NCBI GenBank assembly: GCA_965552055.1 | Contig: CBEVQO010000001.1 | Span: 224,001-288,000, forward strand | Reading direction: 5' to 3' | DNA: 64,000 nucleotides | Origin: an uncultured bacterium | GTDB taxonomy: Bacteria > Hydrothermota > UBA3073 > NMUJ01 > CBEVQO01 | Shown: positions 12,235 through 57,156 of the stretch, piece by piece | Layout of the letters: every line of letters begins with the position of its first letter | Numbering within the stretch: the first letter of the stretch is position 1 | Notes under the pieces: generated by a model | What the model was told of the DNA's origin: nothing | The model's input: only the letters and a program-made list of their open reading frames with translations | The model's database searches: none | Program-made: the position numbers and the translations under genes

Positions 12235-13128
12235 TTAATAAACTTCACCCCAGCCGTAGCCCACCATCCGCTTTGCACCTATACCCAACTCCTCTAACGC
12301 TTTTTTAACCAATAACGCCGCTTTTTCTAACAAATTATTATCATTTGATAAGAGAAATATTTTGAAAATAGAACCTTCTTCGACACAGAGAAAAGGAATA
12401 GGTACAGGTGTTTGCCAATCAGCAGGAGGCTCATTTGAAGAATAATACATAGGAAAATGTGGTGTCATTACATCAATACCTATTTTTAGATTTTCTGGAT
12501 AAGCATCTAAAAAAATGATTTTTCCTTCCTCTTTTTGTGTACCAAAGATTTGTTTGGCTTCTTTTGCGGTTATTCTTTTCCCTATATTTTCCTCTATCTT
12601 ATAATTTTCTATTTTCTTTTTTAATTCTTCGTTTCTCTTTAATTCTTCATTATCTTCTAAAAATTTTTTTATATTATTCACATCTTCTCGATTTTCAGTA
12701 GCAAATTCCAAAATAGTAAAATTCCTGGTAACCCCTTTTACTGCGCTTCCGGGCAAGTAGGGTATCCCGTAGATATGATGCAACAAAATCGAAGTCTCCT
12801 CAGGATGAGATGCCCCCAATCCTATTACCATCCTGGATTTCAGAACAAATTTTAATGACTTTTGTCTATAAGTTAACTTTCCTAATTTTTCAATAATTTC
12901 TTTTCGTTTTTTTATTAACGCCTCTTTTTTCTCATTCTTAAAATAAGTTTCTATATTCTCTTTAACTTTGTTAAGATGTTCCCTTTTCTGCTTTTTTCTC
13001 ACATCAAACATATATCTTGAAAACAGAAGCGAAGGATTTACATATTTTTTTGAATCATGCCATTTTTTTATAATTTCATTCTCTATAATTCTCGCCGTGT
13101 CTTTTGGAAGGGTAAATTTATTTGGCAT
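12235..13128 (-). CDS. cmr6: Type III-B RAMP Cmr6
   Basis: IGLGASHPEETS, GIPYLPGSAVKG, DVMTPHF, GIGAKRMVGYG; start 13128 overlaps the cmr5 stop (TAATG). Confidence 0.92.
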   Translation of the reverse strand: MPNKFTLPKDTARIIENEIIKKWHDSKKYVNPSLLFSRYMFDVRKKQKREHLNKVKENIETYFKNEKKEALIKKRKEIIEKLGKLTYRQKSLKFVLKSRMVIGLGASHPEETSILLHHIYGIPYLPGSAVKGVTRNFTILEFATENREDVNNIKKFLEDNEELKRNEELKKKIENYKIEENIGKRITAKEAKQIFGTQKEEGKIIFLDAYPENLKIGIDVMTPHFPMYYSSNEPPADWQTPVPIPFLCVEEGSIFKIFLLSNDNNLLEKAALLVKKALEELGIGAKRMVGYGWGEVY

Positions 13129-13529
13129 TATTCCTCCTTCTTTAGCATCCCTTCTGCGAATCTTTTTAACCACCAAAGAAATGCCATAATCTCGGATGTA
13201 ATAATTCTATATTCAGTAGAATCAGAGCTGATTATCCAATCTATTAATTCCTTATTATTGGGGCATTTTTTACTTATAGCTTGTTGTTTCATATATTCTG
13301 ATAGATGTTCATAAAGTCTCTTATAAACCCTTTTCTCGAGTGAATCTTCGCCTTTCTTTGAGCAAACAAAAGCAATAGCGTTACCGAGTCCGCAACTCAA
13401 AATTAAAGGAGGCAATTTTTCAACATAGCTCCTATATTTAGATTGAAAAGAAGCACTTTCTTTTGTGATTTCTTTAACTTTCTCGTATGCAAATTTTGCC
13501 CTCCCTTCTTCAATACCTTTTACACTCAT
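13128..13529 (-). CDS. cmr5: Type III-B small subunit Cmr5
   Basis: RAKFAY, YRSYVEKLPPLILSCGLGNAIAF, WLKRFAEGML. Confidence 0.92.
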   Translation of the reverse strand: MSVKGIEEGRAKFAYEKVKEITKESASFQSKYRSYVEKLPPLILSCGLGNAIAFVCSKKGEDSLEKRVYKRLYEHLSEYMKQQAISKKCPNNKELIDWIISSDSTEYRIITSEIMAFLWWLKRFAEGMLKKEE

Positions 13530-14533
13530 TTTCCCCCCTCTTTAAACCATTCAATCCTTACTATACCCTTTCCTATAGTTTGATTCCCTCCTATCTGTAA
13601 AATTTCGGGCATACCTTGCTTAATAAACTTTTCTATATTTTCAACTTCCTTTCCCGGCTCGCTCTCTCTTAGACATTCAAATTTCTCCTCCTTTTCTTTC
13701 TCTTCTTCTTTCTTTTTAGAAATCATTAAAGGTGAGTACAGTGCAATAGAATAAAGAATGGTATTTTCGGGTAAATATTCCTCATACCATGGCCCTTCTT
13801 CCACTGTGCCTTTTTCTGGCGAAACTTTTATTCTTGTGATTATTTCAGTAGATTCTTTAACAAAATGTTTAAACTCATCCCTATCGATTATAATAATATC
13901 TTTTTTCATTTTTTCTCTTATATATTGATAAGCTGTATTCGGGAATATTTGCTCTGAGAAAAACTCAGATAAACTTTTCACATCATCATTTTTATTCACA
14001 TTTAAAGTAAATTCTTCTAAAATTATTTTATTATCTTCTACCATTAAATCACATTCCGTGGAGACTGTGTTTTTTAGTAAATTCCAGTCCTTATTAAGCT
14101 CATCAGGGCAATTTCCTTTTATCACCTTCAAATCTTTTTTGAACCTCTCCAGCACATAGGGGCAAGTAATCCATGCAAAAATTCCCTTTAGTGATTTTAC
14201 GGGGAAAAACAAAATCCTTGCTTCTGTAAATGCTACTGCACTCGCATGATCAGGATTTTCCCAAGGTCCAAATATTAAATCTATGCACTTTTCCCAGTTT
14301 CCTTCATTTATGCAATTAAACTTTTCTTTTACTTTATTTAAGGGACTATTTGAACCTTTTAATTTCAAAAACGCCTCTCTAATAGCGCCCTTTAAAGTAG
14401 AGGACTCAATCTTCGGAAAATCTGTTGTCTTTTCTCTCTGAATAGGAAGGTCGACTACTCCGACTTCTGTCCCAGCTCCCGCATGCAAAGGCGTCTCCAC
14501 TATTATAAAGAAAATATCACCCTTTAAAAACAT
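13526..14533 (-). CDS. cmr4: Type III-B RAMP Cmr4 (target RNase)
   Basis: TPLHAGAG, VDLPIQRE (catalytic Asp), QIGGNQTIGKG; SD AGGAGG before ATG 14533. Confidence 0.95.
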   Translation of the reverse strand: MFLKGDIFFIIVETPLHAGAGTEVGVVDLPIQREKTTDFPKIESSTLKGAIREAFLKLKGSNSPLNKVKEKFNCINEGNWEKCIDLIFGPWENPDHASAVAFTEARILFFPVKSLKGIFAWITCPYVLERFKKDLKVIKGNCPDELNKDWNLLKNTVSTECDLMVEDNKIILEEFTLNVNKNDDVKSLSEFFSEQIFPNTAYQYIREKMKKDIIIIDRDEFKHFVKESTEIITRIKVSPEKGTVEEGPWYEEYLPENTILYSIALYSPLMISKKKEEEKEKEEKFECLRESEPGKEVENIEKFIKQGMPEILQIGGNQTIGKGIVRIEWFKEGGK

Positions 14534-14535
14534 CC

Positions 14536-15786
14536 TCACCTCCTTCTAATTCGAGGAAATTTAACTGCCTCAAAATCAAGTTTTCCTAATTTACTGCCAT
14601 ATTCTTTAACTTTTTGCGATGCGTTTTCGTAGCTTTCTTTATCTACAGGGATAAAACCGTGTGCCAAAATTGAATAGTTCCTCTTTTGCAATATCATTTT
14701 TATCTTCTTATCGTTACAAAATTCTGTGGCTATGTCTTCTCCTAAATCTTTAAGGAGCTCAAATAAATTCTGCAATCCTAATATAATCCTTCCATTTTTC
14801 TCGTATTTTTCATACTTTTTTATTATATTCGAAGGAATTTTGCTTTTGTCAATTTCAACTCTGCCATTTTGTTTATCGATTTTTAATATGGAGTGCTGAT
14901 AAGCCAATATCTGTGCAATGTATTCAAGAGCGCGATAGAGACGAGCCATGGCATCATCATATTTACCTTTATTTGCCCTTCTTTCAGCATTTTCCAATAA
15001 ATCTGCCAATCTCTCTATGCAAAAAGGTTCTTTTTTCTCTTTCTCCAAAACCGAAATATTTTTTTGGCGACGCTTTTTAATACCCCATTTATGTAAGATG
15101 TTTTCATCGATTTCCGATGAAGTTAGTTCCCTGTATGCTTTTTCAAAATCAAATCTATCCCATGCTGAGTAACCTTCGGCTAATTTTTTCAAAATCCTAA
15201 TTTCTTTCAATATTTCTTCTTCTTTTATGATTTCTTCCACTTCTTCGCATAATCTTTTACACTCCTCATAATTACATGAATTAAATGCTTCTTTCGCTTT
15301 TTCTAATAGTTCATCTGCATAAATTTTATTAGGTGTAAGTGTGTACATCCTTTCTGTGCCCGACTTTACTCTTCCATGTTCTTTATCTCTTTCTCCTGTT
15401 ACATATATAAGTGCATCTACTTTCTCTTTTATCCCAGCCCATACTGCACCTGCTGACATCGCTTTCGTACCACTTGTAAAATCAATCGTCACCGTATTAT
15501 AACCTTCTTTGTTTTTATTGATTATTTCCCTGATTTTTTCTGCTATTTTTTCTACATCATCTTCCTTTTCTAACTTTTCTTCTTTGTATTCATACTCATT
15601 TTCTATTTCTCGCACAATTTCTTCCAATTTTTTCTTGCTTTCCTCTGTTATCAAGAAAACGATGAAATCAGGGCTTGATTGACGAATTGAGTATACAATA
15701 CCATGTTCTATTCCCCTGCCCGTCCCTACAGTAATAAACATTATTTTTTTCTTTTTTACTTCATTTTTATTTTTCCCATTAGACAT
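14536..15786 (-). CDS. CARF-HEPN protein (TIGR02710/Csm6-like ribonuclease)
   Basis: ITVGTG and DFTSGTKAMS CARF motifs; YDDAMARLYRALE; RNYSILAHG HEPN motif. Confidence 0.85.
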   Translation of the reverse strand: MSNGKNKNEVKKKKIMFITVGTGRGIEHGIVYSIRQSSPDFIVFLITEESKKKLEEIVREIENEYEYKEEKLEKEDDVEKIAEKIREIINKNKEGYNTVTIDFTSGTKAMSAGAVWAGIKEKVDALIYVTGERDKEHGRVKSGTERMYTLTPNKIYADELLEKAKEAFNSCNYEECKRLCEEVEEIIKEEEILKEIRILKKLAEGYSAWDRFDFEKAYRELTSSEIDENILHKWGIKKRRQKNISVLEKEKKEPFCIERLADLLENAERRANKGKYDDAMARLYRALEYIAQILAYQHSILKIDKQNGRVEIDKSKIPSNIIKKYEKYEKNGRIILGLQNLFELLKDLGEDIATEFCNDKKIKMILQKRNYSILAHGFIPVDKESYENASQKVKEYGSKLGKLDFEAVKFPRIRRR

Positions 15787-16883
15787 AGCCCAAATCCTTC
15801 TTTTTCAAATTTGTCAGAAATGCATCTTAAATTTAACTCTTTCTTTATATCCGATATATTCCCTCTTTTTATTTTAAAGTATAATACGCTACCAGCAGGT
15901 ATTGCTTTATAAATTGCAGATGAATGCACTCGCCCTGCTTTCAAACGCAAACGCGGAACATTTATCGGCTTACCTATTACTCCTCCTATAAATTGAATTT
16001 CCATGCCTTTTTCTCTTAAACTTTTCATAAATCTCGATTCTTCAGAAGACCAGCCTTTTTCAAAAATTCCCGGAGTGATAAAATATAATTTAAAATATTC
16101 CTCATCGCCCTCAAATTGTACACATTCATCTAATTCTTTGAAAATATCTTTATCGATCACTTCGATCACTTTATAAAAACACGCTTTGGACTCTCCACCC
16201 AGTTTTAAAAATCCTTTATTATTCTCAAATTTTTCTAACCCCTCTATTTTTACCACATATTTTGTATTTTCCTTCAATCTTATGTATTCTATTCTGTAAA
16301 GCATGCCTTCTTTTGCTGTTAAAGTTTCAACATCTCTGGCTATGCCTATCTTCGGTTCTTTTTCATAAAATTCTTCTAATTTCTTTACATCAATTTCATC
16401 TCCTTCCAGGTTTAAATAATTTACTAAATTCTCTTTCGATATAAAACCCACAGGTTCTTTTATCCATTCTCTCCCCTTAAATACCCCCGTATATTTTTCC
16501 TTAATGCTTTCCTCTGTTTCAAACCATTTGCTTATTTTCTCTATTTCAGCAAAATAAAAAACCTTTTCTACTTTTTCTTTTTGATACAAATCTAAAGGAA
16601 CAGGGAAATAATAATCCTTTTCTTTCTTTATCACAGGACCTTTTATCTCCATTGTGCCGTATCCTCCTGGGTCACCTAAATCTTTATCAAATTTGAAACC
16701 CGGATTTTGAGCTGCTCTTAGACCTGCTCTTTGATTAATTATCGCCATTTTTATAGCACCATAGAAGGTTGAAGGGAGTGGCAAAATACTTTCACTCCAG
16801 TTAACATAAGAACCCCTCTCAAATCTCCTGCCAGAACCAAAGAAAAGAGTGTCAAAAGGCATTATCTCAATCACTATATCCAT
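15756..16883 (-). CDS. cmr3: Type III-B Cmr3
   Basis: PFDTLFFG, PLPSTFYGAI, KIGIARD, LGGESK, IPAGSVLYF, EGFG. Confidence 0.9.
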   Translation of the reverse strand: MDIVIEIMPFDTLFFGSGRRFERGSYVNWSESILPLPSTFYGAIKMAIINQRAGLRAAQNPGFKFDKDLGDPGGYGTMEIKGPVIKKEKDYYFPVPLDLYQKEKVEKVFYFAEIEKISKWFETEESIKEKYTGVFKGREWIKEPVGFISKENLVNYLNLEGDEIDVKKLEEFYEKEPKIGIARDVETLTAKEGMLYRIEYIRLKENTKYVVKIEGLEKFENNKGFLKLGGESKACFYKVIEVIDKDIFKELDECVQFEGDEEYFKLYFITPGIFEKGWSSEESRFMKSLREKGMEIQFIGGVIGKPINVPRLRLKAGRVHSSAIYKAIPAGSVLYFKIKRGNISDIKKELNLRCISDKFEKEGFGLCLMGKIKMK

Positions 16884-19494
16884 AGCTTCTCCTTTCAGCA
16901 ACCTCTACTATCACCCTCAATAAATTAATAAATTCTTCGAAATTTCTCATATAATCGTATAATTTAAACAATTCTTTAATTTTATTTTTATCCTCCTTCG
17001 CTTCTTCTTTCAAATGACGCTTCACCATTCGCTCTAATAAAGTTCCGAGCAACTCTTTATCTTTTATATCTTTTATCTGTTTCGTCTCCTCCGCAAGTTG
17101 ATAAATAAAGCGCTTCGATATTTCCCCTTCTTTAAATATCTCTGTCACATCTTTTATTATCTCCATAGCATCAAAATTTATTTTCGCTTTTTCTTCGTTT
17201 ATTTCTGTTTCTAAAAATTTAAACCTCGTTATTCTTATACTGCCCGAATGCTTCATTAGTGCAATAGCACATGCATTTTTCCCTTCTAACTCCTTAGCAT
17301 AATCGAGCATCTGTGTCGCTTGAGATATTACCAATTTTAAAGGTGTTTTATAATGAGCAATAACTGCACCGCATGACAGAGTGGATGTCGGACCCATGGT
17401 TAAAATAAGCTTCTCCTCTTTCTCATCTTCCACATATCCATCCGTTTCTTTTGTGAGTTCTATTTCTCCATTACCATTGATTTCACAGAAACCTGAAAAA
17501 GAAAGTCGCAACTTATGGATTACATCAAATAAATCCCTCAGATTTACAAATGCAAGCAGGTCATCGCCCCCGGCATAAACAACTTTGCCAAGGTGCTCCT
17601 TTTCAATTATCTTTATAACAAATTCAATTGCGAAATTTCTTAAAGCAGTAGAAATAGCAGAATGTATTGCTGGAGTTAGCAATCTTTTACCATTGCCAAT
17701 TTTCTTAAATGCCTCGGGATACTCCCAGCCAATTTCTCTAAATTGATTTAGTATATCCGGATGATACACCTTTAAAACATCGGGCAATTTCTCACCGGAA
17801 AGCCATTTTTTCATGTCATCTGCATCCATTTTTATAAGAGCATAATAAGGGGTTGGTAGCATTCCCGCTTTTTCACGCAAGTTTTTTAAACTTTCCCTTA
17901 ATCTTGTAATTTCCTCTTTCTTTACTTCTCTGCCTGTTTCTTCCTCTAATCTCCTATCATTCAAATTTTCCTCGTAAAAGAACTCCATATTAACGCAATT
18001 TTTCCCTTTTATCCTTGGAAGATACCTGTCCGTATCTGCTTTAACCCCCAATTTTTTAAGCTGTTGCACATAATTTTGAAATTCTGGTTTCCCTTCTACT
18101 TTTTCAATAAAATCAGCAGCGGCTACAGAAGCAGTAGAAGGAAAAGCAATTCCCTTATTTCTGGCGTAATTCCTCTTAAAATAGCATAGCCAGCATAATT
18201 CCTCGTCCCCCTCTGCTTTTCTTTCGCCACAAACTATGCAAGTTTTATTTTTATATGTATCTTCTTTTTGAAAATCAAAATTCCTCAATTGTTTCCTCAT
18301 TCCCATTCCTTTTTCAGCTGCGGTATAAAGGAGAGGATAAAGAACTCCGGTATTGGGTGGGAATTGTGCATTACTTAGTATCCAGTTCAGAAAAGTTTCC
18401 CAATCTTTAAGATAATCTTCATCGAATAAGCACGATAATTTTCCAATTTGATCATGGAGTTCTTTTATCTTTTCTTTTTCCTCTTTTTTAAAAGTTATTA
18501 ACTTTATTGGCAAAGCAATCCAATAAACTTCGGGATAATTTTTTAATTCAATCTCCCTTTCTACACATTTCTTAATTTCTTCTTTTAAAAAGTCCTCTAA
18601 CTTTTTCTCAATATTTTTTATTTCACTCAATCCATCTGATGGTATTAATGCAACGAATCTATTTGGAATCGTAGGAATATCCCAATACTCCCTCATTTCT
18701 GCTTCCTCTGCACGAATTACACCTCCTATTCCCTCTTCACGGCTATATAAATATCTCTCCATTAAAGGTTGATCTTTCAAATCCGGATAAATTATGCATT
18801 GGGGACCATATTTTTCAATTATAGGTTTCATTGCTTCAAAAGTTAACCTTGATATTAAATAACTGCTTGCGTAAAAGTCAATGGTTTTGCGTGATTGTTG
18901 AATAAAGGATTGTACAGGACCTATTGCTACTATCACTAAATACATTTCAGGACAAGTAAGAGCAGAAGTTGCCTTTAAATGATGCCATATACTATGGTCA
19001 GGAACCCTTGTATCAGCCGGTAAAACCTCCCAATATTCTTTCATATTTCCGCCTATTTCCCTCAACTTTTTCTCATAATACCACCACAGATATAAAAATG
19101 CAAAACGAGGGTCTTTTTGAGTTCCTATTATTCCTCTTATTTCTTGGACAATTTGATTTAAAGCATTTTGAAGTGTTTGTTGTAAATTTTGCAAATTAAC
19201 ATTACTTAAGAGAAGGCTTTTCTTAATACCCGAAAGAGGATGAACTATTATATATCTTTGCTGAAAATGTACAGCTGTATTTGGTGGCAATAATCCTCTT
19301 TCCATTGCAGAAGCAATTTGATCTTCACAGTCATACCTCAATTCAAAACCCTGTTGATGACCCGGTGGATTTTGCAAAAACTGTGCTAAATTTTGAAAAT
19401 ATTGAAATGCACGCTGCCTGTGGCCCGGTATCTGAAAACATTTATCTACAGGGTCATGCATATATTTTATTATGACTTCGTCAAAGAAGTCCAT
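16867..19494 (-). CDS. cmr2: Cas10/Cmr2 (type III-B)
   Basis: HDPVDK, PADTRVPDHSIWHH, IGPVQSFI, CxxC pairs, YAGGDD palm motif. Confidence 0.95.
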   Translation of the reverse strand: MDFFDEVIIKYMHDPVDKCFQIPGHRQRAFQYFQNLAQFLQNPPGHQQGFELRYDCEDQIASAMERGLLPPNTAVHFQQRYIIVHPLSGIKKSLLLSNVNLQNLQQTLQNALNQIVQEIRGIIGTQKDPRFAFLYLWWYYEKKLREIGGNMKEYWEVLPADTRVPDHSIWHHLKATSALTCPEMYLVIVAIGPVQSFIQQSRKTIDFYASSYLISRLTFEAMKPIIEKYGPQCIIYPDLKDQPLMERYLYSREEGIGGVIRAEEAEMREYWDIPTIPNRFVALIPSDGLSEIKNIEKKLEDFLKEEIKKCVEREIELKNYPEVYWIALPIKLITFKKEEKEKIKELHDQIGKLSCLFDEDYLKDWETFLNWILSNAQFPPNTGVLYPLLYTAAEKGMGMRKQLRNFDFQKEDTYKNKTCIVCGERKAEGDEELCWLCYFKRNYARNKGIAFPSTASVAAADFIEKVEGKPEFQNYVQQLKKLGVKADTDRYLPRIKGKNCVNMEFFYEENLNDRRLEEETGREVKKEEITRLRESLKNLREKAGMLPTPYYALIKMDADDMKKWLSGEKLPDVLKVYHPDILNQFREIGWEYPEAFKKIGNGKRLLTPAIHSAISTALRNFAIEFVIKIIEKEHLGKVVYAGGDDLLAFVNLRDLFDVIHKLRLSFSGFCEINGNGEIELTKETDGYVEDEKEEKLILTMGPTSTLSCGAVIAHYKTPLKLVISQATQMLDYAKELEGKNACAIALMKHSGSIRITRFKFLETEINEEKAKINFDAMEIIKDVTEIFKEGEISKRFIYQLAEETKQIKDIKDKELLGTLLERMVKRHLKEEAKEDKNKIKELFKLYDYMRNFEEFINLLRVIVEVAERRSYGYSD

Positions 19495-19504
19495 TAAGAC
19501 CCCC

Positions 19505-20386
19505 CTAACGCAACCTCCTTACAAAATTATTTAACTGGCTATAATTAACTCTTGGGTAATTACGAGGATACCTCGGTAATAGTTTCACAATTACTATATG
19601 GTGATCATCTCCGATACGCTTTATCGAGACCCAAACAGGTGAAGCCATACGAGGACTACCTGAACCAAGAGAGGGATCACGATAAGTACTCGAAGCTCCG
19701 CCAATATGTCTTAACAAATTATGCCAGTTACCTCTTCTGCCTATCAATACTTCTTCTATCACAGGAAAATTACATCCACATTTGTGGCTTTTTAATTTTT
19801 TATTTATTATCCTTCCGTCCTTAATTTCATAGCAATTCGGTGCTAATTTATTTAAAAGTTCCATTACAGCTTTTAAGAAATTTTGAGGAGTGTTAATACT
19901 TATAACATCATTTATAATTTTTCTATCTCCGTCTTTTATCCAAAGTGACCCAAATCCCCTCCTTGCGCGTTTCCCAAAACTTCCGAGCAAAACAGATATT
20001 TTAAATGCAGTCAAAATTTCGTCTTTATTTGTGGTATCATAAAATTCAAATTCAAGATTTATTGATTGTGTTGGCTTAAAACTTTCTAAAGAAACTCTTC
20101 TGTCTTCTCGGTGGGGGAGTAATGGATATCTTACTTTTTGCAATCCTTTGCCATTATTTATTACTTTTAATTTATATTTGGCACCTGCTTTAGTGCCCCC
20201 AAATATCTCTTCTTCTTTCTTTTTCATTCTATTAATATCTCCACAAAAATAACACCCCTTAGCAGCCCTCCACCAGTAGCGAATAAGACCTTTTATGGAA
20301 GGGGGACGGATTTCAGGTGTCCGTTGATCCGCCCCATACATGAATAGCGGAGTTATGGTTTCTAATTGAAAAGTCACCTTAATCAC
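19505..20386 (-). CDS. cmr1: Type III-B RAMP Cmr1
   Basis: ITPLFMYGA, IRPPSIKGLIRYWWRA, FGKRARRGFGS, RMASPV. Confidence 0.93.
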   Translation of the reverse strand: MIKVTFQLETITPLFMYGADQRTPEIRPPSIKGLIRYWWRAAKGCYFCGDINRMKKKEEEIFGGTKAGAKYKLKVINNGKGLQKVRYPLLPHREDRRVSLESFKPTQSINLEFEFYDTTNKDEILTAFKISVLLGSFGKRARRGFGSLWIKDGDRKIINDVISINTPQNFLKAVMELLNKLAPNCYEIKDGRIINKKLKSHKCGCNFPVIEEVLIGRRGNWHNLLRHIGGASSTYRDPSLGSGSPRMASPVWVSIKRIGDDHHIVIVKLLPRYPRNYPRVNYSQLNNFVRRLR

Positions 20387-20441
20387 ATTACCTCCTTTTT
20401 AAAGATTTTAACATATATATGATTATGTCAAGAGTTTTTAG

Positions 20442-20603
20442 AAAAAATTTTTTCTTGCCGATAATATTTTAAGGCTGCGAAAAGAGATAGAAAAAATAGT
20501 TGACAAAGAGCGAGATAGTGTTATAATATATGTGATGGATGAAAGCTCAAAAATCATAAAAGATGTTATCAGCGGTGAAGACAAAACCTCTAATATATTG
20601 TGA
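20442..20603 (+). pseudogene. cas2: 5'-truncated cas2 remnant
   Basis: Frame reads LADNILRLRKEIEKIVDKERDSVIIYVMDESSKIIKDVISGEDKTSNIL*, with a Cas2-type DSVIIY motif and C-terminal tail. In-frame TAG at 20439-20441 and no N-terminal half. Lies directly before the array leader. Confidence 0.7.
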
Positions 20604-20688
20604 GTTCTTTGAAAATAGAATCAGAGGTTTGACAAAAATTTTAATAAAAATAATTCGTAAATTAAAAAATAATAACAAATTTTTTGCG
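20500..20688 (+). promoter_or_regulatory. Array 1 promoter (TTGACA 20500-20505, TATAAT 20522-20527) and AT-rich leader
   Basis: Perfect hexamers with a 16 nt spacer; 20594-20688 is 83/95 identical to the array 3 leader. Confidence 0.75.
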
Positions 20689-22950
20689 GTTTCAATGCAC
20701 CAAAGAGGAGTTCAAACTTTTATGTCTTTGCTTGCAATTTCAATTCTGCTGTTAGGTTTCAATGCACCAAAGAGGAGTTCAAACAATTCAGGGTCGCCTC
20801 CTAGTGTCAATTTTACTGCGTTTCAATGCACCAAAGAGGAGTTCAAACTCAAAAGCAGGAGGTATCTGGTTGCAGGAGAATATGAGCGTTTCAATGCACC
20901 AAAGAGGAGTTCAAACCTTTCCTGGATTTCCGAATATAATATTGTGGTAGGTGGTTTCAATGCACCAAAGAGGAGTTCAAACTACAACTCCTAAATGTGT
21001 GCCTCCTTCAACCGTTACGTTTCAATGCACCAAAGAGGAGTTCAAACTCCAACGTCAACCCTGCGTTCGGGTTTCCTTCGAGGAGTTTCAATGCACCAAA
21101 GAGGAGTTCAAACTTCCTGACACTGGTTCGATAATAACGCACGGTTTCGGTTTCAATGCACCAAAGAGGAGTTCAAACCTTTATAAAATTCGATTATATA
21201 CTCGCAATGGAATTATGTTTCAATGCACCAAAGAGGAGTTCAAACTCGCCTTCTGCATGGAGTAATTCTGCGTCTTTCAATAAGTTTCAATGCACCAAAG
21301 AGGAGTTCAAACACATACACTACTTTAAAAAATTGTTTACGCATCTTTCGTTTCAATGCACCAAAGAGGAGTTCAAACTTTCTCAATTAAATACCACCAG
21401 GCAAGCCAGCAATCTGTTTCAATGCACCAAAGAGGAGTTCAAACTCGTTCTGTCTCCATTTTGTTCCACATCTCCAACAACGTTTCAATGCACCAAAGAG
21501 GAGTTCAAACTAGTCAAATCTGTAGTATCTTTCCCCCATTACTTTAGTTTCAATGCACCAAAGAGGAGTTCAAACTTCTCTATCGCTCTCAAAATGAGTG
21601 CATCTGTATCAGTTTCAATGCACCAAAGAGGAGTTCAAACTGAAAGGTCCCATACCATATGCACGAAAAGTAATGACTGTTTCAATGCACCAAAGAGGAG
21701 TTCAAACATGAGTTTCAATGCATACTTCAATGCTTTACGGTACGGTTTCAATGCACCAAAGAGGAGTTCAAACTCTATCTTATTCTCGTCAATCGACAAC
21801 CTCTGCTCTGGTTTCAATGCACCAAAGAGGAGTTCAAACTTAAAATATTAAAATCAATTAAACCCCAACCTAAAGGTTTCAATGCACCAAAGAGGAGTTC
21901 AAACATACTCTTACGAAGATAATCCCCCAATCCCAGCCACAGGTTTCAATGCACCAAAGAGGAGTTCAAACTTATCCGTCTTTTGAGGTAATCTTTCCTC
22001 AGGCAATTTGTTTCAATGCACCAAAGAGGAGTTCAAACTACACCCCGGCGGGCACTTTCTTAGGAAAGATACCCAGGTTTCAATGCACCAAAGAGGAGTT
22101 CAAACATTTTAAAATCTTCTTCGCATTCTTTGAAAATTATTGTTTCAATGCACCAAAGAGGAGTTCAAACTCTACCTTTTTTATTCTGGCTTTTGAGTGC
22201 AAAATGGAAAGGTTTCAATGCACCAAAGAGGAGTTCAAACAGGATGAGCTCCTTTAAGGCGATGACCTTCTTTTTACCAAGTTTCAATGCACCAAAGAGG
22301 AGTTCAAACTAGCATGCAAGGCTTTTGCATCCAACGATCCGACCCTGTTTCAATGCACCAAAGAGGAGTTCAAACCTACTCTATGTAAATTGGGTCTAAC
22401 AAAGTTGTCGGGTTTCAATGCACCAAAGAGGAGTTCAAACATAAGGAAGTCCCTCAAACCCCTCCAATCCGCATACGTTTCAATGCACCAAAGAGGAGTT
22501 CAAACTCTGTAGCTGTGTCAGCATTCTGTGTGTATGAAGAAGTTTCAATGCACCAAAGAGGAGTTCAAACTACTCTCCGTATGCTATTCGTTTTAAAGTT
22601 GATGCGGGTTTCAATGCACCAAAGAGGAGTTCAAACATCCTTTTGAGGTATCGTATGCTGGGGCTGTTGGTGATTTCAATGCACCAAAGAGGAGTTCAAA
22701 CCTGTCCCCAACACCATCAACGCACTCTTCCCATCACGTTTCAATGCACCAAAGAGGAGTTCAAACTCCCGTGCTTGGTTCAATAACCGGTACCGGCTTT
22801 GTGTTTCAATGCACCAAAGAGGAGTTCACAACTTTCTTTTGTAGTAACATGACAGTTTCAATGCACTGAAGTGGAGTTCAAACGAAATAAAAAATCAAAC
22901 AGAAGTCAAAATTTGTTTTAGTTTTTAATGCACAGAGAAGGGGTTCAAAC
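20689..22950 (+). CRISPR. CRISPR array 1: 35 repeats, GTTTCAATGCACCAAAGAGGAGTTCAAAC (29 bp)
   Basis: About 66 bp period. The last repeats (22803, 22855, 22921) are degenerate and the leader is on the left. Strand assignment is discussed in findings. Confidence 0.98.
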
Positions 22951-23724
22951 TTCCAAGATTAATTTCAAGTATCCGAAGCCCTGTCCTGTGCGCACTCCCA
23001 TCCCGTAGTCATATATAAACTGCAAAGAATCAGGAGCACCCCTGAGCCAAAAAACACCTTTAAAACCTTTTATAAAACCCCCATAATGCTTTATCATCAA
23101 TTTCGTAATAGGGCTTCCTATCTTCAAAAAAGTACATTCACTTTTGCTGGGAAGCACCAGCTCTAACGATGAAAACGGAGATTTCTTCTTCAATGTTTTG
23201 TATTTTTGATAAAACCTTTTATTCAAAACTTCATTAAACTTTTCTAAATCATCCAATGGCGTTATAAACCATTTATCAATGTCCCTCGCATCCTCCTCCG
23301 GATTCGTCATTATAACAGGACTCTCTGTTTTTAAAAGAATTTTATCGCCCTTTATTTTCTTCATCTTCGTTATCTTTATTTCTCTTAATTTAAAAAAGTT
23401 CCTATCTAGAAATATCCCTCCTTCTTTTTCTTCTTTCATTTTAATAAGACAATTATAAAATCTAACAAAAAGAGATGTCTCTCCTGTTGAAAATTTAAAA
23501 ACAATAGGGGAAGTAAAGCGTATTTTCTCATCCGTTCCTATTTCAAAATCTCTGAATTTAATGGCAAATGTAAAAGGCTTCCATTTCTTCTTCTTGTAAA
23601 ACTCATCATAAAGACCAACCCTTGAAAAAATATTTTTAATAAAAGATATAAATTTCCTTCTGTAATCTACATTAGCCACAAAGTATTTTTCAGTCGGCTC
23701 CCCAAAAATACATTCCAAACGCAT
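22945..23724 (-). CDS. cas6: Cas6 endoribonuclease
   Basis: YRRKFISFIK, KPFTFAI, C-terminal GMGVRTGQGFG G-rich loop; the stop codon lies inside the last degenerate repeat. Confidence 0.92.
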   Translation of the reverse strand: MRLECIFGEPTEKYFVANVDYRRKFISFIKNIFSRVGLYDEFYKKKKWKPFTFAIKFRDFEIGTDEKIRFTSPIVFKFSTGETSLFVRFYNCLIKMKEEKEGGIFLDRNFFKLREIKITKMKKIKGDKILLKTESPVIMTNPEEDARDIDKWFITPLDDLEKFNEVLNKRFYQKYKTLKKKSPFSSLELVLPSKSECTFLKIGSPITKLMIKHYGGFIKGFKGVFWLRGAPDSLQFIYDYGMGVRTGQGFGYLKLILEV

Positions 23725-23772
23725 CAAAAATTATAGCTCTTAACTAAAAAATGTCAAGTTAAAACTTCCTCA

Positions 23773-49003: not shown

Positions 49004-50044
49004 TTAATTTTCACAAATCTTACCATCATCTATCCACACATGCAATATTCCTTTATTTTGTGCCCATTGTTTCCACTTTGCAAAATTACTTTCTATATCA
49101 TTATTTATGATCTCTTCTTCCGCTTTTTCTTTTAACTTGTTAAATTTATCAAACATCTCCCCTGTAATTATCCTTTTTCCGCCATTTACTATTCGAAGAA
49201 AATCTGCTTTAAATAATTTCGTTTTTAAATCTTTGATTAATGGCTTCTCTTTTTCCATTTCATCAATCGTTACATATCCTCCTGTCTGATTCAATTTACT
49301 TTTTATATATCTAAAAAGTTCACTGATATCAAAAAAGAGCGGGGGAAATTCATACCAGCCCGGAGGTGGCACAGAAATATGCTTTTCCCTAAAATCATAT
49401 AAATTTAAATCAGAGGGATGTAAATATTGTATTTTTTCTTCAAAAACATAATACAATCTGGTTGAAGCAAGAGTAAAAGCCTCTGCAAGAAGCAGCGAAA
49501 GATTTATTTGATTGGAACCTCCTATCATATTCAACCATACTTCCTTCCTTTTTAAACCACATAAAGTTATGTAAACTTTCTCAAAACAATCATCAAAATC
49601 TTTGTAATTCACTTCTATTCCATAAAAATATTTTAATCCATAAGAATTATTTCCAAAATAAAATAAAAATTCGTCAATTTTTTCATTTACTCTCGAATTC
49701 TTTGATTTCTTTTTAAGTTCCATCAAAAGATTTTTAATTTCTTCGCTTAATCTTCGCAGGTATTCGAGAATAATGTGCGGGATGCTTTTTTGCAGTTGTG
49801 TCTTAAATAAATTATCGGTGATATTGCGAGGCGGCTCGGCTCCACTTAAGACTTCTTTGGAAGAAAAAATTATTAGACCTTCTACTTTCCCTTTTACTTT
49901 CTCACTCTCTTCTCCTGATTTAGCAAAAAATTTTAATGCTTTTTCATCTGTTATTGATTGCAACAATAATTTATATACATAAGTTAAAGGAACTGTTACA
50001 GCACCTGGATTTAATCCCAGGCCACTTACATGAAAAACTCCCAT
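49004..50044 (-). CDS. Divergent CARF protein with probable wHTH
   Basis: HVSGLGLNPGAVT, VWLNMIGGSNQIN, RLYYV; last gene of the csm operon. Confidence 0.7.
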   Translation of the reverse strand: MGVFHVSGLGLNPGAVTVPLTYVYKLLLQSITDEKALKFFAKSGEESEKVKGKVEGLIIFSSKEVLSGAEPPRNITDNLFKTQLQKSIPHIILEYLRRLSEEIKNLLMELKKKSKNSRVNEKIDEFLFYFGNNSYGLKYFYGIEVNYKDFDDCFEKVYITLCGLKRKEVWLNMIGGSNQINLSLLLAEAFTLASTRLYYVFEEKIQYLHPSDLNLYDFREKHISVPPPGWYEFPPLFFDISELFRYIKSKLNQTGGYVTIDEMEKEKPLIKDLKTKLFKADFLRIVNGGKRIITGEMFDKFNKLKEKAEEEIINNDIESNFAKWKQWAQNKGILHVWIDDGKICEN

Positions 50045-51051
50045 TATCTTATTTCTTCGAGCAAAATCCAGCCCAAAGGAAGATATTTCCTTTCATCCTT
50101 TCTTACCGCCCTCTTTGTTTCGATATCTTTATTTCTATTTATCAAATTTACAGTCAAACCATAATATCCCTGACCCATGCCTATTCTCAACATAAATTTT
50201 CCTTCATTAAGCTTCTCCTCTACCACACCATGATCTATCACCTCACCTCTACTAAATTCGGAAAAAGTTTGCTTCTCAAAATCGATTAAATCCTTATAAA
50301 ATTCTTTACATTTTGCTTTCAATCCATCAAATGTAAGAATTTCGGCAAGTTCCTTATTTCTCTCTGTAAATTTTTGTCTCAGTTTCTCATCTATTAAAAT
50401 TTCACATTCAAATTCTGTATTTTCCTGCAAAATTTCACACCAGATTCTAAAGCGTTTATTTTTTCTTCTATGTAGCACTGTCACGGGTTCAACTATCAAC
50501 CTATCCAGCTTTACTGGATTTGTGTCCCGTATGATAAGACATCTTAATATATCATCCTGGGGAGTGTTATTGATACGCAATAACTTTTCTAACTCCCTTT
50601 CATTGGAGGGCAATTTTTCCCCGGATTTAAGGATAGAATAAAGTAATGCCGTTCTTATAGCTCCCTTTATCTCCGAACCAGGAATATATGGCCCAGGTTC
50701 ATTATATTTCTCATTATACTGCTTTATAAAAGTATGGATTTTATCTCGTGGAATTTCTTTATAACTTAATTTATAATAATAGTTTTCTCGTTGCTTTGAT
50801 TTACTTAACAAATCATTATGTTGTCTTAAAAATTCTGTCATTTCTATTCTGCCCCGCTTCGCTTGTTCCAACAACTCGTTTCCACATCTTTTATATATTT
50901 CTTCAAACATTTCTTCTTTTAGGTAATAAACACTTTTATTTTCCTCATCATAGATATAAGTAAATGGTGTAAATTCTTCTCCACTTCCTATAAAAACCGG
51001 TGTCAATGTGTGAATTTTAAATTTCTTTATTGTATAAAGAGAGGAAGACAT
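50044..51051 (-). CDS. csm5: Type III-A RAMP Csm5
   Basis: TLTPVFIGSG, PYIPGSEIKGAIRTA, LRIGMGQG. Confidence 0.92.
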   Translation of the reverse strand: MSSSLYTIKKFKIHTLTPVFIGSGEEFTPFTYIYDEENKSVYYLKEEMFEEIYKRCGNELLEQAKRGRIEMTEFLRQHNDLLSKSKQRENYYYKLSYKEIPRDKIHTFIKQYNEKYNEPGPYIPGSEIKGAIRTALLYSILKSGEKLPSNERELEKLLRINNTPQDDILRCLIIRDTNPVKLDRLIVEPVTVLHRRKNKRFRIWCEILQENTEFECEILIDEKLRQKFTERNKELAEILTFDGLKAKCKEFYKDLIDFEKQTFSEFSRGEVIDHGVVEEKLNEGKFMLRIGMGQGYYGLTVNLINRNKDIETKRAVRKDERKYLPLGWILLEEIR

Positions 51052-52022
51052 AGTCCGCTCCTTATTACTCTATAATTTTTGTCCTCTTTTACAAAATTAA
51101 TTTCGCAAATTTTTCCATAAATCTCTTTTTCTTTTAATATTTTAACCTTTGAACCTTCTTTTATAAATTTAATCAACTTTTTATGTTTGCCAAAGGGAGC
51201 AAATTCAAATTTAGTTTCAGGAGCATATATTATTGACTCAATTTCGAAACTTTCAGGAGGAAAATGTATCTCTCCGTCATCGGGAATATACCTTGAAAGA
51301 CAAACAAAATACTCCCCTTTTCTATTTAAAAGTCCTTTAATTTCGGATGGCACATCAATTATCTCCGTTGCAAACTGATTATAGCCCGCACTCTTTTCCC
51401 CTCCTATCCCTGTATCTGCCAGATATTTTAAAAGAGGTTCAAAATAACCCTTATCATACAGTGTTCTTAAAATAAAATATAATTCGAAATTCCTGTTTAA
51501 CATTATATACCGCTTAAAAAATAATTTCCCTTCTTCTGTACTATGTTTCAATCTATTAATCTCATTGCGGATTACAATTCCTGTTGTCATTAATCTATCT
51601 TTTATCTCTCCTAAACTCACTATTCCTTTATCTTCGTTTAAATTTTCTTCCGTTTTAAATTCTTTTAGAGTTTTTTCGCCATTTTCGATAAACTTTCTCC
51701 AGAAAGACACGCTCCAGTATTTCGCTTTTTTAAATTCTTTCCATTTCTCATCTTTCCCCTGCAATATGCCCATAAACAATTTAATAACTCCAGCACATAC
51801 AGGAAAAGTAAAAACTTGTTTTTTATAAACCGGAAAAGATGAACTGACACAGAATATTTTTTCACCATTTATAAATGCGTTTATCACTTTGTTTAATTCA
51901 TTTTCTCCATAAATGAACCTTATTGCCCACATTAAAGCACCAAACAGGGTATCGGAGTGGGGAAAATCTTTTATAAAACCTTTTGGCTTTAGATAGACAA
52001 TATAATCGTTATAATTCTTCAT
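51027..52022 (-). CDS. csm4: Type III-A Csm4
   Basis: HSDTLFGAL, VSSSFP, GIGGEKSAGYNQF, EGS. Confidence 0.92.
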   Translation of the reverse strand: MKNYNDYIVYLKPKGFIKDFPHSDTLFGALMWAIRFIYGENELNKVINAFINGEKIFCVSSSFPVYKKQVFTFPVCAGVIKLFMGILQGKDEKWKEFKKAKYWSVSFWRKFIENGEKTLKEFKTEENLNEDKGIVSLGEIKDRLMTTGIVIRNEINRLKHSTEEGKLFFKRYIMLNRNFELYFILRTLYDKGYFEPLLKYLADTGIGGEKSAGYNQFATEIIDVPSEIKGLLNRKGEYFVCLSRYIPDDGEIHFPPESFEIESIIYAPETKFEFAPFGKHKKLIKFIKEGSKVKILKEKEIYGKICEINFVKEDKNYRVIRSGLCLPLFIQ

Positions 52023-52783
52023 TTTGAGATTTTCTCAAGTATTTTTAGCAGATTTTCTTTTATTTTCTCCGGTGGTTCTTCAAGTTTTTCGTTATCACCT
52101 TTTACAAAAATTTCCTCTTCTGGAACATTTTTTTGATAATATTCTTTTTTTCTGAAAGTAACCCTTACACCTATAAATGAAATTTTACCGTATCCTCTGG
52201 TACCTGAGCCTCCGAGATACGAATCTTGCAGTAATCTCATGCCTTCAAAAACTACAGGTAGAAGGTCTTCTACATCGTTTTCTGTAAAGACATCAAATAT
52301 CATTTCAAATTCAAATTCAGAACCTTTTGGTACTCTCTCCATTGCTCGAGGATTTGCTCTCGCTGTTATCCGATTTATCGTATTTTCCCATTTTATTTCG
52401 GTAAATATGTCTTCCCCTAAATTTTCTTTCCATTCTTTAAGTGTATTGCGGGTAGGAAATGCATCGCGCACAATTAATCTCCCCGGTTCTTTTGATTTTT
52501 CTGCTGGTACACCAAAAACTTTGCAAATTTCACAATCTCCACATTTGCAAGGTTCACCTTTATTTTCTTGAACTTTATCGTATTTCCACTCTAATAAACT
52601 TCTCATTTTCCCTTTTAAAGACGAACCAGGAATGTAAGGATAACCCGTTAGCGGATCTTTTATCACAATGCTATCAACGTCTCCTATTTCTATTTTTTCA
52701 ACCGCTGAACCTATATGCAGTCCTGTCTCAGTCCTTATTTTTCCTTTTATTATTATTTTACCCAAAAAATTCAAAACACTCAT
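52019..52783 (-). CDS. csm3: Type III-A Csm3
   Basis: TGLHIG, PYIPGSSLKGKMRSLLE, KWENTINR, YLGGSGTRGYG. Confidence 0.95.
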   Translation of the reverse strand: MSVLNFLGKIIIKGKIRTETGLHIGSAVEKIEIGDVDSIVIKDPLTGYPYIPGSSLKGKMRSLLEWKYDKVQENKGEPCKCGDCEICKVFGVPAEKSKEPGRLIVRDAFPTRNTLKEWKENLGEDIFTEIKWENTINRITARANPRAMERVPKGSEFEFEMIFDVFTENDVEDLLPVVFEGMRLLQDSYLGGSGTRGYGKISFIGVRVTFRKKEYYQKNVPEEEIFVKGDNEKLEEPPEKIKENLLKILEKISK

Positions 52784-52791
52784 CGTTCCCC

Positions 52792-53286
52792 CTATTTTCC
52801 ATGGAATTTATGAAAAGCTATTATCGCTTCCATAAATTCTGTTAATTTTTCTTTATCTTTTTCCTCACAATTGTCTATTAAAGTCTGAGTAACCTCAAAG
52901 AACAAATCATCAATTACCCCCTTGCCTTTAGCATATGCGAGTAACGGCATCAGCCTCTGCAAATCATTTTTTATATCCGTCGAAGTTTTGGTCATACGCT
53001 TCAGTTCGTTAAAAAATTTTCTCAGTTGTCGCATCTTAATATCAGAACAATAAGCAACCATTTCGGCCAATCCATCAAGTCCCACTCTCACTTTTTCAGA
53101 AAGATTAAAAAAATCGCGGGCTTTGTTTTTTATGTATCTCTTAATATCCTCCTTGAGGTTTTTCTTTTCTCTTTGAAGTACTTGATTTTGTTGCTTTTGT
53201 TCGCGTTTATCAGTAATTTTTTTAATTTCTTCGTTTCTTCTTTTTATTTTTTTAAACTCTCTTTGCAACTTTTCAAACTCATTCAT
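52792..53286 (-). CDS. csm2: Type III-A Csm2
   Basis: QLRKFF, LAYAKG, FMEAIIAFHK. Confidence 0.9.
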   Translation of the reverse strand: MNEFEKLQREFKKIKRRNEEIKKITDKREQKQQNQVLQREKKNLKEDIKRYIKNKARDFFNLSEKVRVGLDGLAEMVAYCSDIKMRQLRKFFNELKRMTKTSTDIKNDLQRLMPLLAYAKGKGVIDDLFFEVTQTLIDNCEEKDKEKLTEFMEAIIAFHKFHGK

Positions 53287-55663: not shown

Positions 55664-55702
55664 CATAAATTATATGTCCACAGAAGGGTTGTCAAGAAAA
55701 AA

Positions 55703-56714: not shown

Positions 56715-57156
56715 TCCCTCCTATTAAGGCAGGCAATCCCCCTATTAAGGGTCAAAAACAGGCAAACATTTCGGCGGTGGATAGGTAAAGTTAAAATTGC
56801 AATCCCCCTATTAAGGGTCAAAAACTGTGTTATCCGCTTCAGTAATCGAAACGAGATAGACATTGCAATCCCCCTATTAAGGGTCAAAAACACGATTTGC
56901 ATTTAAAATATCGTTGTCCATTAGATAGTTGCAATCCCCCTATTAAGGGTCAAAAACATTATGGAAGGCCTGAGCACAGTTGCTAAAAAGCTAGGTTGCA
57001 ATCCCCCTATTAAGGGTCAAAAACGAGGCAAAGATGAGAGTCATGGAAATTTGGAAGAAGTTGCAATCCCCCTATTAAGGGTCAAAAACCTATTATGAAA
57101 CACAAAAAGAAAGTTGTTTTATTCGCGTTGCAATCCCCCTATTAAGGGTCAAAAAC
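56715..57156 (-). CRISPR. CRISPR array 2: 7 repeats plus a fragment; GTTTTTGACCCTTAATAGGGGGATTGCAAC (30 bp, minus strand)
   Basis: Repeats at 56730, 56796, 56862, 56928, 56995, 57060, 57127; degenerate on the left, leader on the right. Confidence 0.96.

What the first reader, a model, noticed from the sequence alone, without database searches (positions are those of the whole stretch)
20594..22950. Same leader, flipped repeat: arrays 1 and 3 carry an 83/95-identical leader on opposite ends of homologous repeats
Seen: 20594-20688 (+) matches the reverse complement of 59395-59489 at 83/95 positions ungapped. On the + strand the repeats are homologous (GTTTCAATGCACCAAAGAGGAGTTCAAAC versus GTTTCAATCCCCCAAAGAGGGTCTTCAAC). 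The leader abuts the GTTTCAAT end in array 1 but the CTTCAAC end in array 3, and degenerate repeats are leader-distal in both. Established: class 1 crRNA 5' tags usually derive from a repeat ending ATTGAAAC, which would put array 1 on the minus strand. The leader, promoter, degeneracy and spacer sense instead favour plus, giving a GUUCAAAC tag. Inference: the repeat was inverted relative to the leader, possibly giving a crRNA class specific to Cmr and its adjacent Cas6. Alternatively, acquisition and transcription run in opposite directions, with read-through from cas6, whose stop lies inside the last repeat.
Basis: partly seen in the sequence, partly recalled or inferred. Interest (0 to 1): 0.75.

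Follow-up and report, generated by a model that had tools for sequence, protein, structure and literature searches.

The report
CRISPR repeat flipped behind copied leader
Two CRISPR immune-memory arrays in one uncultured heat-loving bacterium share the same starter sequence but carry their repeat in opposite directions; the first array has the normal layout of a widespread family, and the other likely arose when a copied repeat was turned round and then likely tuned to a different processing enzyme, a route to new CRISPR repeats that I did not find described.

Summary
In detail: 83/95 leader identity, repeats 22/29 alike only in opposite orientation, and both junctions recur in other samples' contigs, so it is not a misassembly. 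Array 1 belongs to a widespread type I-B repeat family (GTTNCAAT...AATTTAAAC). Its leader motif lies at the GTTNCAAT end in 50 of 59 flanks and in 0 of 65 at the other end, and the family PAM (CC in 63 of 89) lies on that side. Array 1 sits behind a cas2 remnant holding a consensus promoter, takes new spacers at the leader, and shows 5' TCR flanks in 4 of 5 protospacers. Its predicted GUUCAAAC tag is a drifted AUUUAAAC, not an inversion product. Array 3 is the derived one: a local copy of the same leader with the reverse-complement repeat (24/29). Four of its five changes fall in the family's old invariant handle, and four equal array 2's base. Likely history: leader duplication, repeat inversion, then tuning to the Csm-linked Cas6. 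It was found only in this species; no RNA data exist. Neither literature searches nor this scan's earlier notes reported such a flip.

The parts
12235..20386 (-). Type III-B operon: cmr1, cmr2 (Cas10), cmr3, CARF/Csm6-type nuclease, cmr4, cmr5, cmr6
   Evidence: NCBIfam hits over cut-off; Pfam Csm6 HEPN/6H domains
20405..20431 (-). Promoter-like site for cmr (TTGACA-15-TAAAAT), divergent from array 1
   Evidence: 15-nt spacing is the commonest in this genome
20448..20603 (+). 3' remnant of a cas2 gene (51 codons plus stop) from a lost cas4-cas1-cas2 module
   Evidence: Pfam Cas2 E=2e-4; BLASTP 45% identity, E=4e-9 to the L022 Cas2; 51/51 identical in strain L106
20500..20527 (+). Consensus promoter TTGACA-16-TATAAT (extended TG), spelled by the cas2 codons VDK...SVII and followed by the genome's GATGG element; predicted to drive array 1
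   Evidence: the same hexamers occur in the intact cas2 of L123, so the match alone is not proof of use
20594..20688 (+). Leader of array 1 (first 10 nt are the end of cas2); distal TTTGAC motif at 20628-20633
20689..22950 (+). Array 1: 35 repeats GTTTCAATGCACCAAAGAGGAGTTCAAAC (31 exact), 34 spacers; family-normal orientation; predicted crRNA tag GUUCAAAC
   Evidence: protospacer flanks
22945..23727 (-). cas6 of the subfamily that accompanies the array-1 repeat family elsewhere; convergent on the array, stop codon in the last repeat
23730..23757 (-). Consensus promoter of cas6; possible source of antisense read-through into array 1
50044..55666 (-). Type III-A operon csm1-csm5
55703..56629 (-). 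Csm-linked cas6, predicted processor of arrays 2 and 3
   Evidence: homologues sit near CCC-loop-GGG|ATTG repeats
56730..57156 (-). Array 2: 7 repeats GTTTTTGACCCTTAATAGGGGGATTGCAAC with a different leader family, shared with three I-B arrays elsewhere in the genome
57288..58385 (-). APE2256-family CRISPR-associated gene between arrays 3 and 2
58441..59394 (-). Array 3: 15 repeats GTTGAAGACCCTCTTTGGGGGATTGAAAC; the derived, flipped member; predicted tag AUUGAAAC
59395..59489 (-). Leader of array 3, a local copy of the array-1 leader including the last 10 nt of cas2
   Evidence: 83/95; last 62 nt 54/62 to array 1, versus alignment scores of 24-40 for nine leaders from other taxa; both lack the family's GC in TTTGACGCAA
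59510..59536 (-). Promoter-like site for array 3 (TTGACA-15-TATAAT, then GATGG)

Best explanation
Array 1 is a normally oriented member of a widespread type I-B repeat family, and array 3 likely arose from a local copy of its leader in which the near-palindromic repeat was inverted and then likely adapted to the Csm-linked Cas6. SHOWN: the family puts its leader and PAM at the GTTNCAAT end. Array 1 does too, behind a cas2 remnant. Array 3 carries the same leader with the reverse-complement repeat (24/29). INFERRED for array 1: it lost cas4/cas1/5' cas2 but kept the cas2 piece holding the promoter, is transcribed on plus, is cut by the adjacent Cas6 to give GUUCAAAC-tagged crRNA for Cmr, and is fed spacers in trans by the genome's only cas4-cas1-cas2. 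INFERRED for array 3: only the leader-proximal repeat needs to flip, because each acquisition copies that repeat and old units are lost. The flipped repeat already ends in ATTGAAAC. The old handle (now the 5' end) was freed and changed at four positions, and together with one core change this built the GACCC...GGGG|ATTG stem of array 2. Whether the flip was a one-repeat micro-inversion (template switching between GTTTCAAT/ATTTAAAC arms) or a whole-array inversion followed by turnover is not resolved.
For: Family polarity, repeat-first: 119 arrays; leader motif in 50 of 59 flanks at the GTTNCAAT end, 0 of 65 at the other. Leader-first, over 407 genomes: 20 of 26 matches were followed by a family repeat, all GTTNYAAT-first, none flipped; 6 were non-arrays. 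PAM from overlapping spacers: CC at -3/-2 in 63 of 89 5' flanks, no motif in 127 3' flanks. Degenerate ends: 9 versus 1 among 24 arrays. Array 1: 26/29 to the family in leader sense; cas2 remnant; different leader-adjacent spacer but shared trailer in other strains; 5' flanks TCG, TCG, TCA, TCA, TAG; spacers antisense-like in 36 of 45, p=7e-5, classifier 78% accurate. Array 3: 24/29 to the family reverse complement versus 17/29 direct; 11 of 16 middle positions, P=6e-4; 6 of 7 positions not explained by array 2, P=0.004. Four of five changes fall in positions 21-26, invariant in 13 family variants, and four of five equal array 2's base. Leader-end repeat variants propagate as blocks in two other arrays of this genome.
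Against: Array 3 is also 21-22/30 like array 2 in forward sense, so a chimeric origin is possible; the P values are post hoc. No intermediate was found: 0 opposite-strand copies among 4084 family repeat copies (redundant samples), and no array-3-type array in 271 other genomes of the phylum. Yeast template-switch inversions were seen only with arms over 9 bp and 2-5-nt centres (PMC8604942, passages), whereas here the arms are 7/8 matched around 13 nt. Array 1's PAM (TCR) differs from the family's CCN; the single array-3 flank is CTG and the single array-2 flank CCA. The genome's only full cas2 reads frameshifted in this assembly. Array 1's repeat folds poorly in plus sense (-0.7 versus -2.1 kcal/mol opposite). 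Transcription, cleavage and loading are untested.
Confidence: 0.68

Rival explanations
1. Leader swap: array 3 descends from an array-2-like repeat that was joined to a copy of the array-1 leader; its likeness to the reverse-complement family repeat is palindromy plus chance, or patchy gene conversion.
For: Array 3 matches array 2 at 21-22 of 30 positions, shares GACCCT and GGGGGATTG, lies 1.3 kb upstream on the same strand and folds the same stem. All these repeats start GTT, a possible crossover point.
Against: It needs about eight changes including a 1-nt deletion, seven of which land on the flipped-family state; P about 0.004. The family/array-2 pattern alternates along the repeat, unlike one crossover. 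No 29-nt GACCC-type repeat was found in 241 other genomes; the GACCC-loop-GGGG arrays found have longer (37-nt in G007) repeats.
Confidence: 0.2
2. Array 1 acquires at the plus-strand leader but its useful crRNAs come from the minus strand by read-through from cas6, with AUUGAAAC tags.
For: cas6 has a 12/12 promoter pointing at the array and no terminator-like site was called between its stop and the array. The minus repeat ends ATTGAAAC and folds slightly better.
Against: Minus crRNAs would be sense to most targets (36 of 45 spacers antisense-like on plus), useless for RNA-targeting Cmr, and would carry the PAM on the wrong side for type I. A 12/12 plus promoter with the genome's GATGG element lies upstream. 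The minus stem next to the tag is broken by two mismatches.
Confidence: 0.05
3. Array 1 is the inverted array and its GUUCAAAC tag is a product of the inversion.
For: Only the general ATTGAAAC rule (PMC8482600, passages).
Against: All family evidence and the in-place cas2-leader-repeat order, the same as in L022 and L029.
Confidence: 0.02
4. Assembly artefact at one leader-repeat junction.
For: Both leaders end TTTTTTGCG and both repeats start GTT; the assembly may have homopolymer errors.
Against: Both junctions occur in other assemblies with strain-level differences.
Confidence: 0.02

Closest known systems
Type I-B cas4-cas1-cas2-leader-array loci with 29-nt repeats ending ATTTAAAC (Thermodesulfobacteriaceae L029, WOR-3 L030, bacterium HR19 L026/L196, uncultured L022)
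   Same: Same repeat core, leader architecture (TCTTTGAAAA...TTTGAC-55 nt-GCG), position after cas2, Cas6 subfamily; in L030 and L216 also beside a Cas10/Cmr2-like gene.
   Different: Array 1 has lost its own adaptation genes, has two changes in the otherwise invariant handle and TCR rather than CCN flanks. Array 3 has the repeat reversed, seen in no other member examined.
Array duplication and sharing of type I-B adaptation by adaptation-less type III modules (PMC12814883 and PMC8482600, passages read)
   Same: Duplicated leaders, several arrays per genome, type III modules without their own cas1, coding-strand-targeting spacer bias.
   Different: The passages read describe duplicates with the same or similar repeat and whole-array orientation relative to cas genes, not a repeat inverted behind a retained leader.
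Type II-C arrays with acquisition end opposite to transcription (recalled; difficulty of orienting II-C noted in PMC12638026, passages)
   Same: Superficially, repeat orientation and leader position disagree with rules of thumb.
   Different: Here leader, PAM side, spacer sense and promoter agree for array 1 (leader, spacer sense and promoter for array 3); the repeats hold no -10 box.
Template-switch inversion between short inverted repeats (PMC8604942, passages; yeast)
   Same: Would invert the centre of a quasi-palindromic repeat in one step.
   Different: Documented there for perfect arms over 9 bp and 2-5-nt centres in coding DNA; not shown for CRISPR repeats.

Membership tests
Class 1 CRISPR array (arrays 1 and 3) | Direct repeats with unique 35-41-nt spacers | tested here: met
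Class 1 CRISPR array (array 1) | Spacers match foreign DNA | tested here: met
   five spacers match contigs that run on into unrelated DNA; none found in IMG/VR or GenBank phages
Class 1 CRISPR array (array 1) | Polarised acquisition at the leader | tested here: met
   different first spacer, shared trailer in other strains
Class 1 CRISPR array (array 3) | Polarised acquisition at the leader | tested here: inconclusive
   degenerate repeat is leader-distal in window and L065, but all spacers differ and L065 lacks the leader end
Class 1 CRISPR array | Transcription from the leader and Cas6 cleavage 8 nt from the repeat end | not testable with these tools
   no RNA holder listed; 8-nt rule from PMC5965381, passages
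GTTNCAAT...ATTTAAAC type I-B family (array 1) | Repeat core in leader sense | tested here: met
   26/29
GTTNCAAT...ATTTAAAC type I-B family (array 3) | Repeat core in leader sense | tested here: not met
   17/29 direct, 24/29 reverse complement
GTTNCAAT...ATTTAAAC type I-B family (both arrays) | Leader with TTTGACGCAA about 60 nt upstream and CG end | tested here: met
   TTTGAC at the same distance, GC missing in both arrays
GTTNCAAT...ATTTAAAC type I-B family (array 1) | Invariant AATTTAA at repeat positions 21-27 | tested here: not met
   A22G and T25C; invariant in 13 other variants
GTTNCAAT...ATTTAAAC type I-B family (array 1) | Cognate cas4-cas1-cas2 upstream | tested here: not met
   only a cas2 3' remnant; one cas1 in the genome, 47% identical to the family Cas1, 134 kb away
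GTTNCAAT...ATTTAAAC type I-B family (array 1) | 5' CCN PAM | tested here: inconclusive
   5' side met; TCR in 4 of 5 versus CC in 63 of 89 in the family; both fit YCN (PMC8406132, passages)
Type III-B (Cmr) module | cmr1-cmr6 with Cas10 | tested here: met
II-C-like reversed array | Promoter inside each repeat, transcription towards the acquisition end | tested here: not met
   no repeat-borne consensus promoter recurs across the array (scattered weak sites depend on spacer sequence); feature recalled, and seen for C. jejuni in bioRxiv 10.1101/2020.01.15.903914, passages

The most novel reading that the evidence does not exclude
A quasi-palindromic CRISPR repeat works both ways round behind one leader: inverting the single leader-proximal repeat founds a new array class in one step, swaps the crRNA tag from AUUUAAAC-type to AUUGAAAC and reassigns the array from one Cas6/effector pair (Cmr) to another (Csm), with one non-cognate Cas1-Cas2 writing into both. 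Repeat inversion would then be a general generator of new repeat families and explain why some families look like reverse complements of each other.
Probability: 0.3. Interest if true: 0.72.

Novelty: new variant of a known kind. Interest (0 to 1): 0.5.

Why it matters
It is a natural experiment on what the adaptation machinery reads: one leader with the repeat in both orientations, in one cell. This makes it directly testable whether integration polarity and PAM orientation are set by the leader alone. It suggests a one-step route by which new repeat/Cas6 pairings and effector-specific crRNA pools arise. It also exposes a widespread I-B family whose reverse complement, not its sense strand, ends in ATTGAAAC, a trap for motif-based orientation rules (I did not run those tools; PMC12638026 reports many I-B arrays mis-oriented in CRISPRCasdb). 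The limits: one species, no new protein or chemistry, no RNA evidence.

Tried and rejected
RNA evidence: no RNA holder listed among 5 runs; says nothing about expression. Protospacer hunts that found nothing: 4 of 4 IMG/VR scans and GenBank phages, so the PAM of array 3 rests on one flank. Leader search by DNA in 60 relatives gave only short AT-rich matches. Rfam: no match in the window. I first read the three joints at 59395 as new leader-end spacers of array 3; one search showed they are internal spacers beginning with C, so I withdrew that. Homology of the array-3 promoter to the cas2 remnant: a local alignment beat 300 shuffles, but the neighbouring RNA-ligase promoter scored as well, and array 3's site was not in the top 8 of 831 promoter-like sites; the likeness is a genome-wide GATGG element, so rejected. 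The cas6 stop inside the last repeat as a sign of read-through design: the overlap is 6 nt and the C-terminus is of normal length; uninformative. RNA folding did not orient the family (weak structures both ways). Four non-CRISPR hits (L025, L028, L073, L104) were dropped before the family counts. The CRISPR leader-motif paper PMC12171695 was not held. Literature searches for a repeat inverted relative to its leader returned no such report; subscription journals and bioRxiv supplements were not searchable.

Full report
1. Observation. Window 20594-20688 matches the reverse complement of 59395-59489 at 83 of 95 positions without gaps; BLASTN gives E=1e-27 and no third copy in the genome. The repeats match at 22/29 on the same genomic strand and 15/29 when both are read from their leaders. 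Array 1 (20689-22950, 35 repeats) lies between a complete type III-B operon and a convergent cas6. Array 3 (58441-59394, 15 repeats) and array 2 (56730-57156) lie upstream of cas6-csm1-5. Both junctions recur in contigs of other runs, with strain-level differences: array 1 in X1 record 1, X4 record 24 and L106; array 3 in X1 record 7 and X4 record 22. These are contigs and may come from related sites, but they make misassembly unlikely.

2. Array 1 is normal for its family. A two-copy pattern for the repeat core found 9 loci among GTDB contigs and 115 listed in metagenomes. After dropping four non-CRISPR hits, 119 arrays remained; most have GTTNCAATCC(A/G)CCAAAGAGGAATTTAAAC. A leader motif (TTTGAC about 60 nt upstream) lies at the GTTNCAAT end in 50 of 59 arrays with enough flank and in 0 of 65 at the other end (many are redundant Thermodesulfobacteriaceae-type copies, about ten leader clusters). 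To avoid bias I also searched leader-first, with a pattern that either orientation would satisfy, in 63+272+7+65 genomes. Of 26 matches, 20 were followed by a family repeat, all GTTNYAAT-first, and 6 were non-arrays; three of these loci repeat ones already found. Overlapping spacers give the PAM without virus data: CC at -3/-2 in 63 of 89 5' flanks in GTTNCAAT sense, and no motif in 127 3' flanks (a few flanks are near-duplicates). Degenerate terminal repeats lie at the far end in 9 of 24 arrays and at the GTTNCAAT end in 1. In L022, L029, L212 and L220 the leader follows cas1-cas2. So this family is read GTTNCAAT to ATTTAAAC, although its reverse complement ends in ATTGAAAC.

3. Anatomy of array 1. 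The DNA before the leader is the 3' part of a cas2 gene (Pfam E=2e-4; 45% identity, E=4e-9 to L022 Cas2), identical in strain L106. The shared 95 nt begin with its last codons. The perfect promoter at 20500-20527 is spelled by cas2 codons and also exists in the intact cas2 of L123, so the consensus alone proves little. However, the remnant follows it with GATGG, an element seen about 20-fold over background behind this genome's promoter-like sites (27 versus 1.3 expected of 387), which L123 lacks. Other strains have a different first spacer and share the trailer. Five spacers match contigs that continue into foreign DNA; their 5' flanks on plus end TCG, TCG, TCA, TCA and TAG (22 of 27 loose ends were shown). 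Spacers read from the leader look antisense to coding DNA in 25 of 33 (window) and 11 of 12 (L106), p=7e-5, against 53% of 2391 in the commonest family repeat class; the classifier is 78% accurate on held-out genes. That is the bias reported for type III arrays (PMC8482600, passages). The repeat is 26/29 to the family consensus, with A22G and T25C in positions invariant in 13 other variants. The predicted tag is therefore GUUCAAAC, drifted from AUUUAAAC. The adjacent Cas6 belongs to the subfamily found in all five family-bearing genomes tested (directly before leader and array in HR19) and is among the most divergent of eight aligned (39-51%), compatible with co-evolution but not proof.

4. 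Array 3 is the derived one. Its leader is a local copy: 54/62 to array 1 over the last 62 nt, against scores of 24-40 for nine leaders of other taxa. Both lack the GC of the family's TTTGACGCAA motif, and both start with the cas2 tail. Its repeat is 24/29 to the reverse complement of the family consensus and 17/29 direct. Excluding the ends common to class 1 repeats, 11 of 16 middle positions match (P=6e-4); excluding also what array 2 could explain, 6 of 7 match (P=0.004; post hoc). Four of the five differences fall in family positions 21-26, the old crRNA handle that a flip would move to the 5' end. Four of the five equal array 2's base, giving GACCC...GGGG|ATTG and a -7.0 kcal/mol stem. Homologues of the Csm-linked Cas6 (30-39% identity) had arrays nearby in 7 of 20 stretches, all with CCC-loop-GGG|ATTG; this motif is common in class 1 repeats, so it is weak support. 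Spacers are antisense-like from the leader in 21 of 28 (window plus L065; p=0.013). The array-3 core was found as an array in none of 271 other genomes of the phylum (three isolated one-mismatch sites) and in metagenomes only in L065, a strain of this species. No flipped copy occurs among 4084 family repeat copies.

5. Mechanism. Inferred steps: (a) loss of cas4, cas1 and 5' cas2 at the array-1 locus, sparing the promoter; (b) duplication of leader plus repeat to the Csm region; (c) inversion of the repeat; (d) adaptation to the Csm-linked Cas6. Step (c) needs only the first repeat, since acquisition copies it (established knowledge; two other arrays of this genome show leader-end blocks of variant repeats). 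The family repeat has 7/8-matched terminal arms, a substrate for template switching, but published inversions had longer arms and shorter centres (PMC8604942, passages), and a whole-array inversion with later turnover would look the same. Both orientations keep GTT...AAAC ends. P. furiosus Cas1-Cas2 depends mainly on the leader-repeat junction and a mid-repeat block and tolerates a 43%-identical site in vitro (PMC6698737, passages), so continued acquisition is plausible. The genome has one cas1, tied to a different leader family; spacers differ wholly between strains that share the cas2 deletion, so it likely writes in trans. Against this, its cas2 reads frameshifted by one T in a homopolymer, which may be an assembly error or a recent loss.

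6. Rivals. A leader swap onto an array-2-like repeat (0.2) is the serious one: 21-22/30 identity and proximity favour it; the flipped-family match and 29-nt length argue against it. Minus-strand crRNAs by cas6 read-through (0.05) would mostly be sense to their targets; low-level antisense RNA remains possible. Array 1 as the inverted one (0.02) and misassembly (0.02) are contradicted.

7. Literature and novelty. Searches listed no report of a repeat inverted behind a retained leader. Seen as passages: PMC8482600 (plus a search of 5 supplementary files, where the family repeat was absent in both orientations), PMC12638026, PMC12814883, PMC6698737, PMC8604942, PMC8406132, PMC5965381, bioRxiv 10.1101/2020.01.15.903914 and 10.64898/2026.07.20.739571. 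Other papers were seen as listings only. PMC12171695 on leader motifs was not held and may cover this leader family; bioRxiv supplements were closed. This scan's earlier notes held no such case. Verdict: real, a new variant of known array duplication and repeat evolution, one species, mechanism inferred. Interest 0.5.

Noticed in passing
whole genome G000; e.g. window 20405-20431 (-) and 59510-59536 (-): Promoter-like sites have an unusually short spacer: TTGACA-N-TAWAAT occurs 253 times with 15 nt, 47 with 16 and 17 with 17; 228 of 253 point at a nearby ORF start, and GATGG follows about 4-6 nt after the -10 box. Twenty stretches from other genomes of the phylum gave 0 at 15, 29 at 16 and 14 at 17. 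Among five relatives, 15 versus 16 counts were 3/3, 6/2, 16/9, 3/23 and 3/38. Suggests a lineage-specific sigma factor or RNA polymerase geometry; one paper search found nothing on it. Possibly more interesting than the finding itself.
   Followed up: partly
G000:C2:23745-24449 (L204:11746-12450): A fourth, orphan Cas6-like gene (33% to the array-1 Cas6) sits co-directionally in a housekeeping run (accA-like, acyl-CoA ligase-like, hisS-like by N-terminal look), with an altered glycine-rich loop and no array; no clear orthologue in 5 relatives tested.
   Followed up: partly
G000:C1:378999-379280 (L001): The genome's only full-length cas2 has a one-base frameshift in a T run; assembly error or recent loss of adaptation.
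   Followed up: partly
window 20576-20592 and array-3 repeat: The 5' part of the array-3 repeat (GTTGAAGAC-CCTCT) resembles the cas2 tail codons just upstream of the shared leader (GGTGAAGAC-AAAA-CCTCT; ATTGAAGACCCT in L220). Probably chance, since array 2 explains three of the four bases, but unexplained.
   Followed up: no
family leaders, e.g. L022, L029, L030: The distal motif TTTGACGCAAAA is an inverted copy of the leader end TTTT(G/A)CG, about 55 nt apart; both arrays of this genome have lost its GC. Candidate integrase docking pair.
   Followed up: partly
window 44814-48877 (-) and 43324-44817 (+): Tubulin-like (PF13809) 906-aa protein and a VWA protein next to a TPR-caspase gene, directly downstream of the csm operon and a CARF-like gene at 49004-50044; looks like a conflict-system cluster.
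   Followed up: no
window 59592-60194 (-): A 200-aa RNA-ligase-domain gene (PF09414) with its own promoter-like site lies directly upstream of the array-3 leader.
   Followed up: no
window 33201-36509 (-): 1102-aa protein with a receiver-like region and a C-terminal RibD-type deaminase domain, in a run of mostly unannotated genes.
   Followed up: no
L065 versus run X4, array 3: Two different spacers appear to target the same short coding stretch of two related invaders; not found in IMG/VR.
   Followed up: partly
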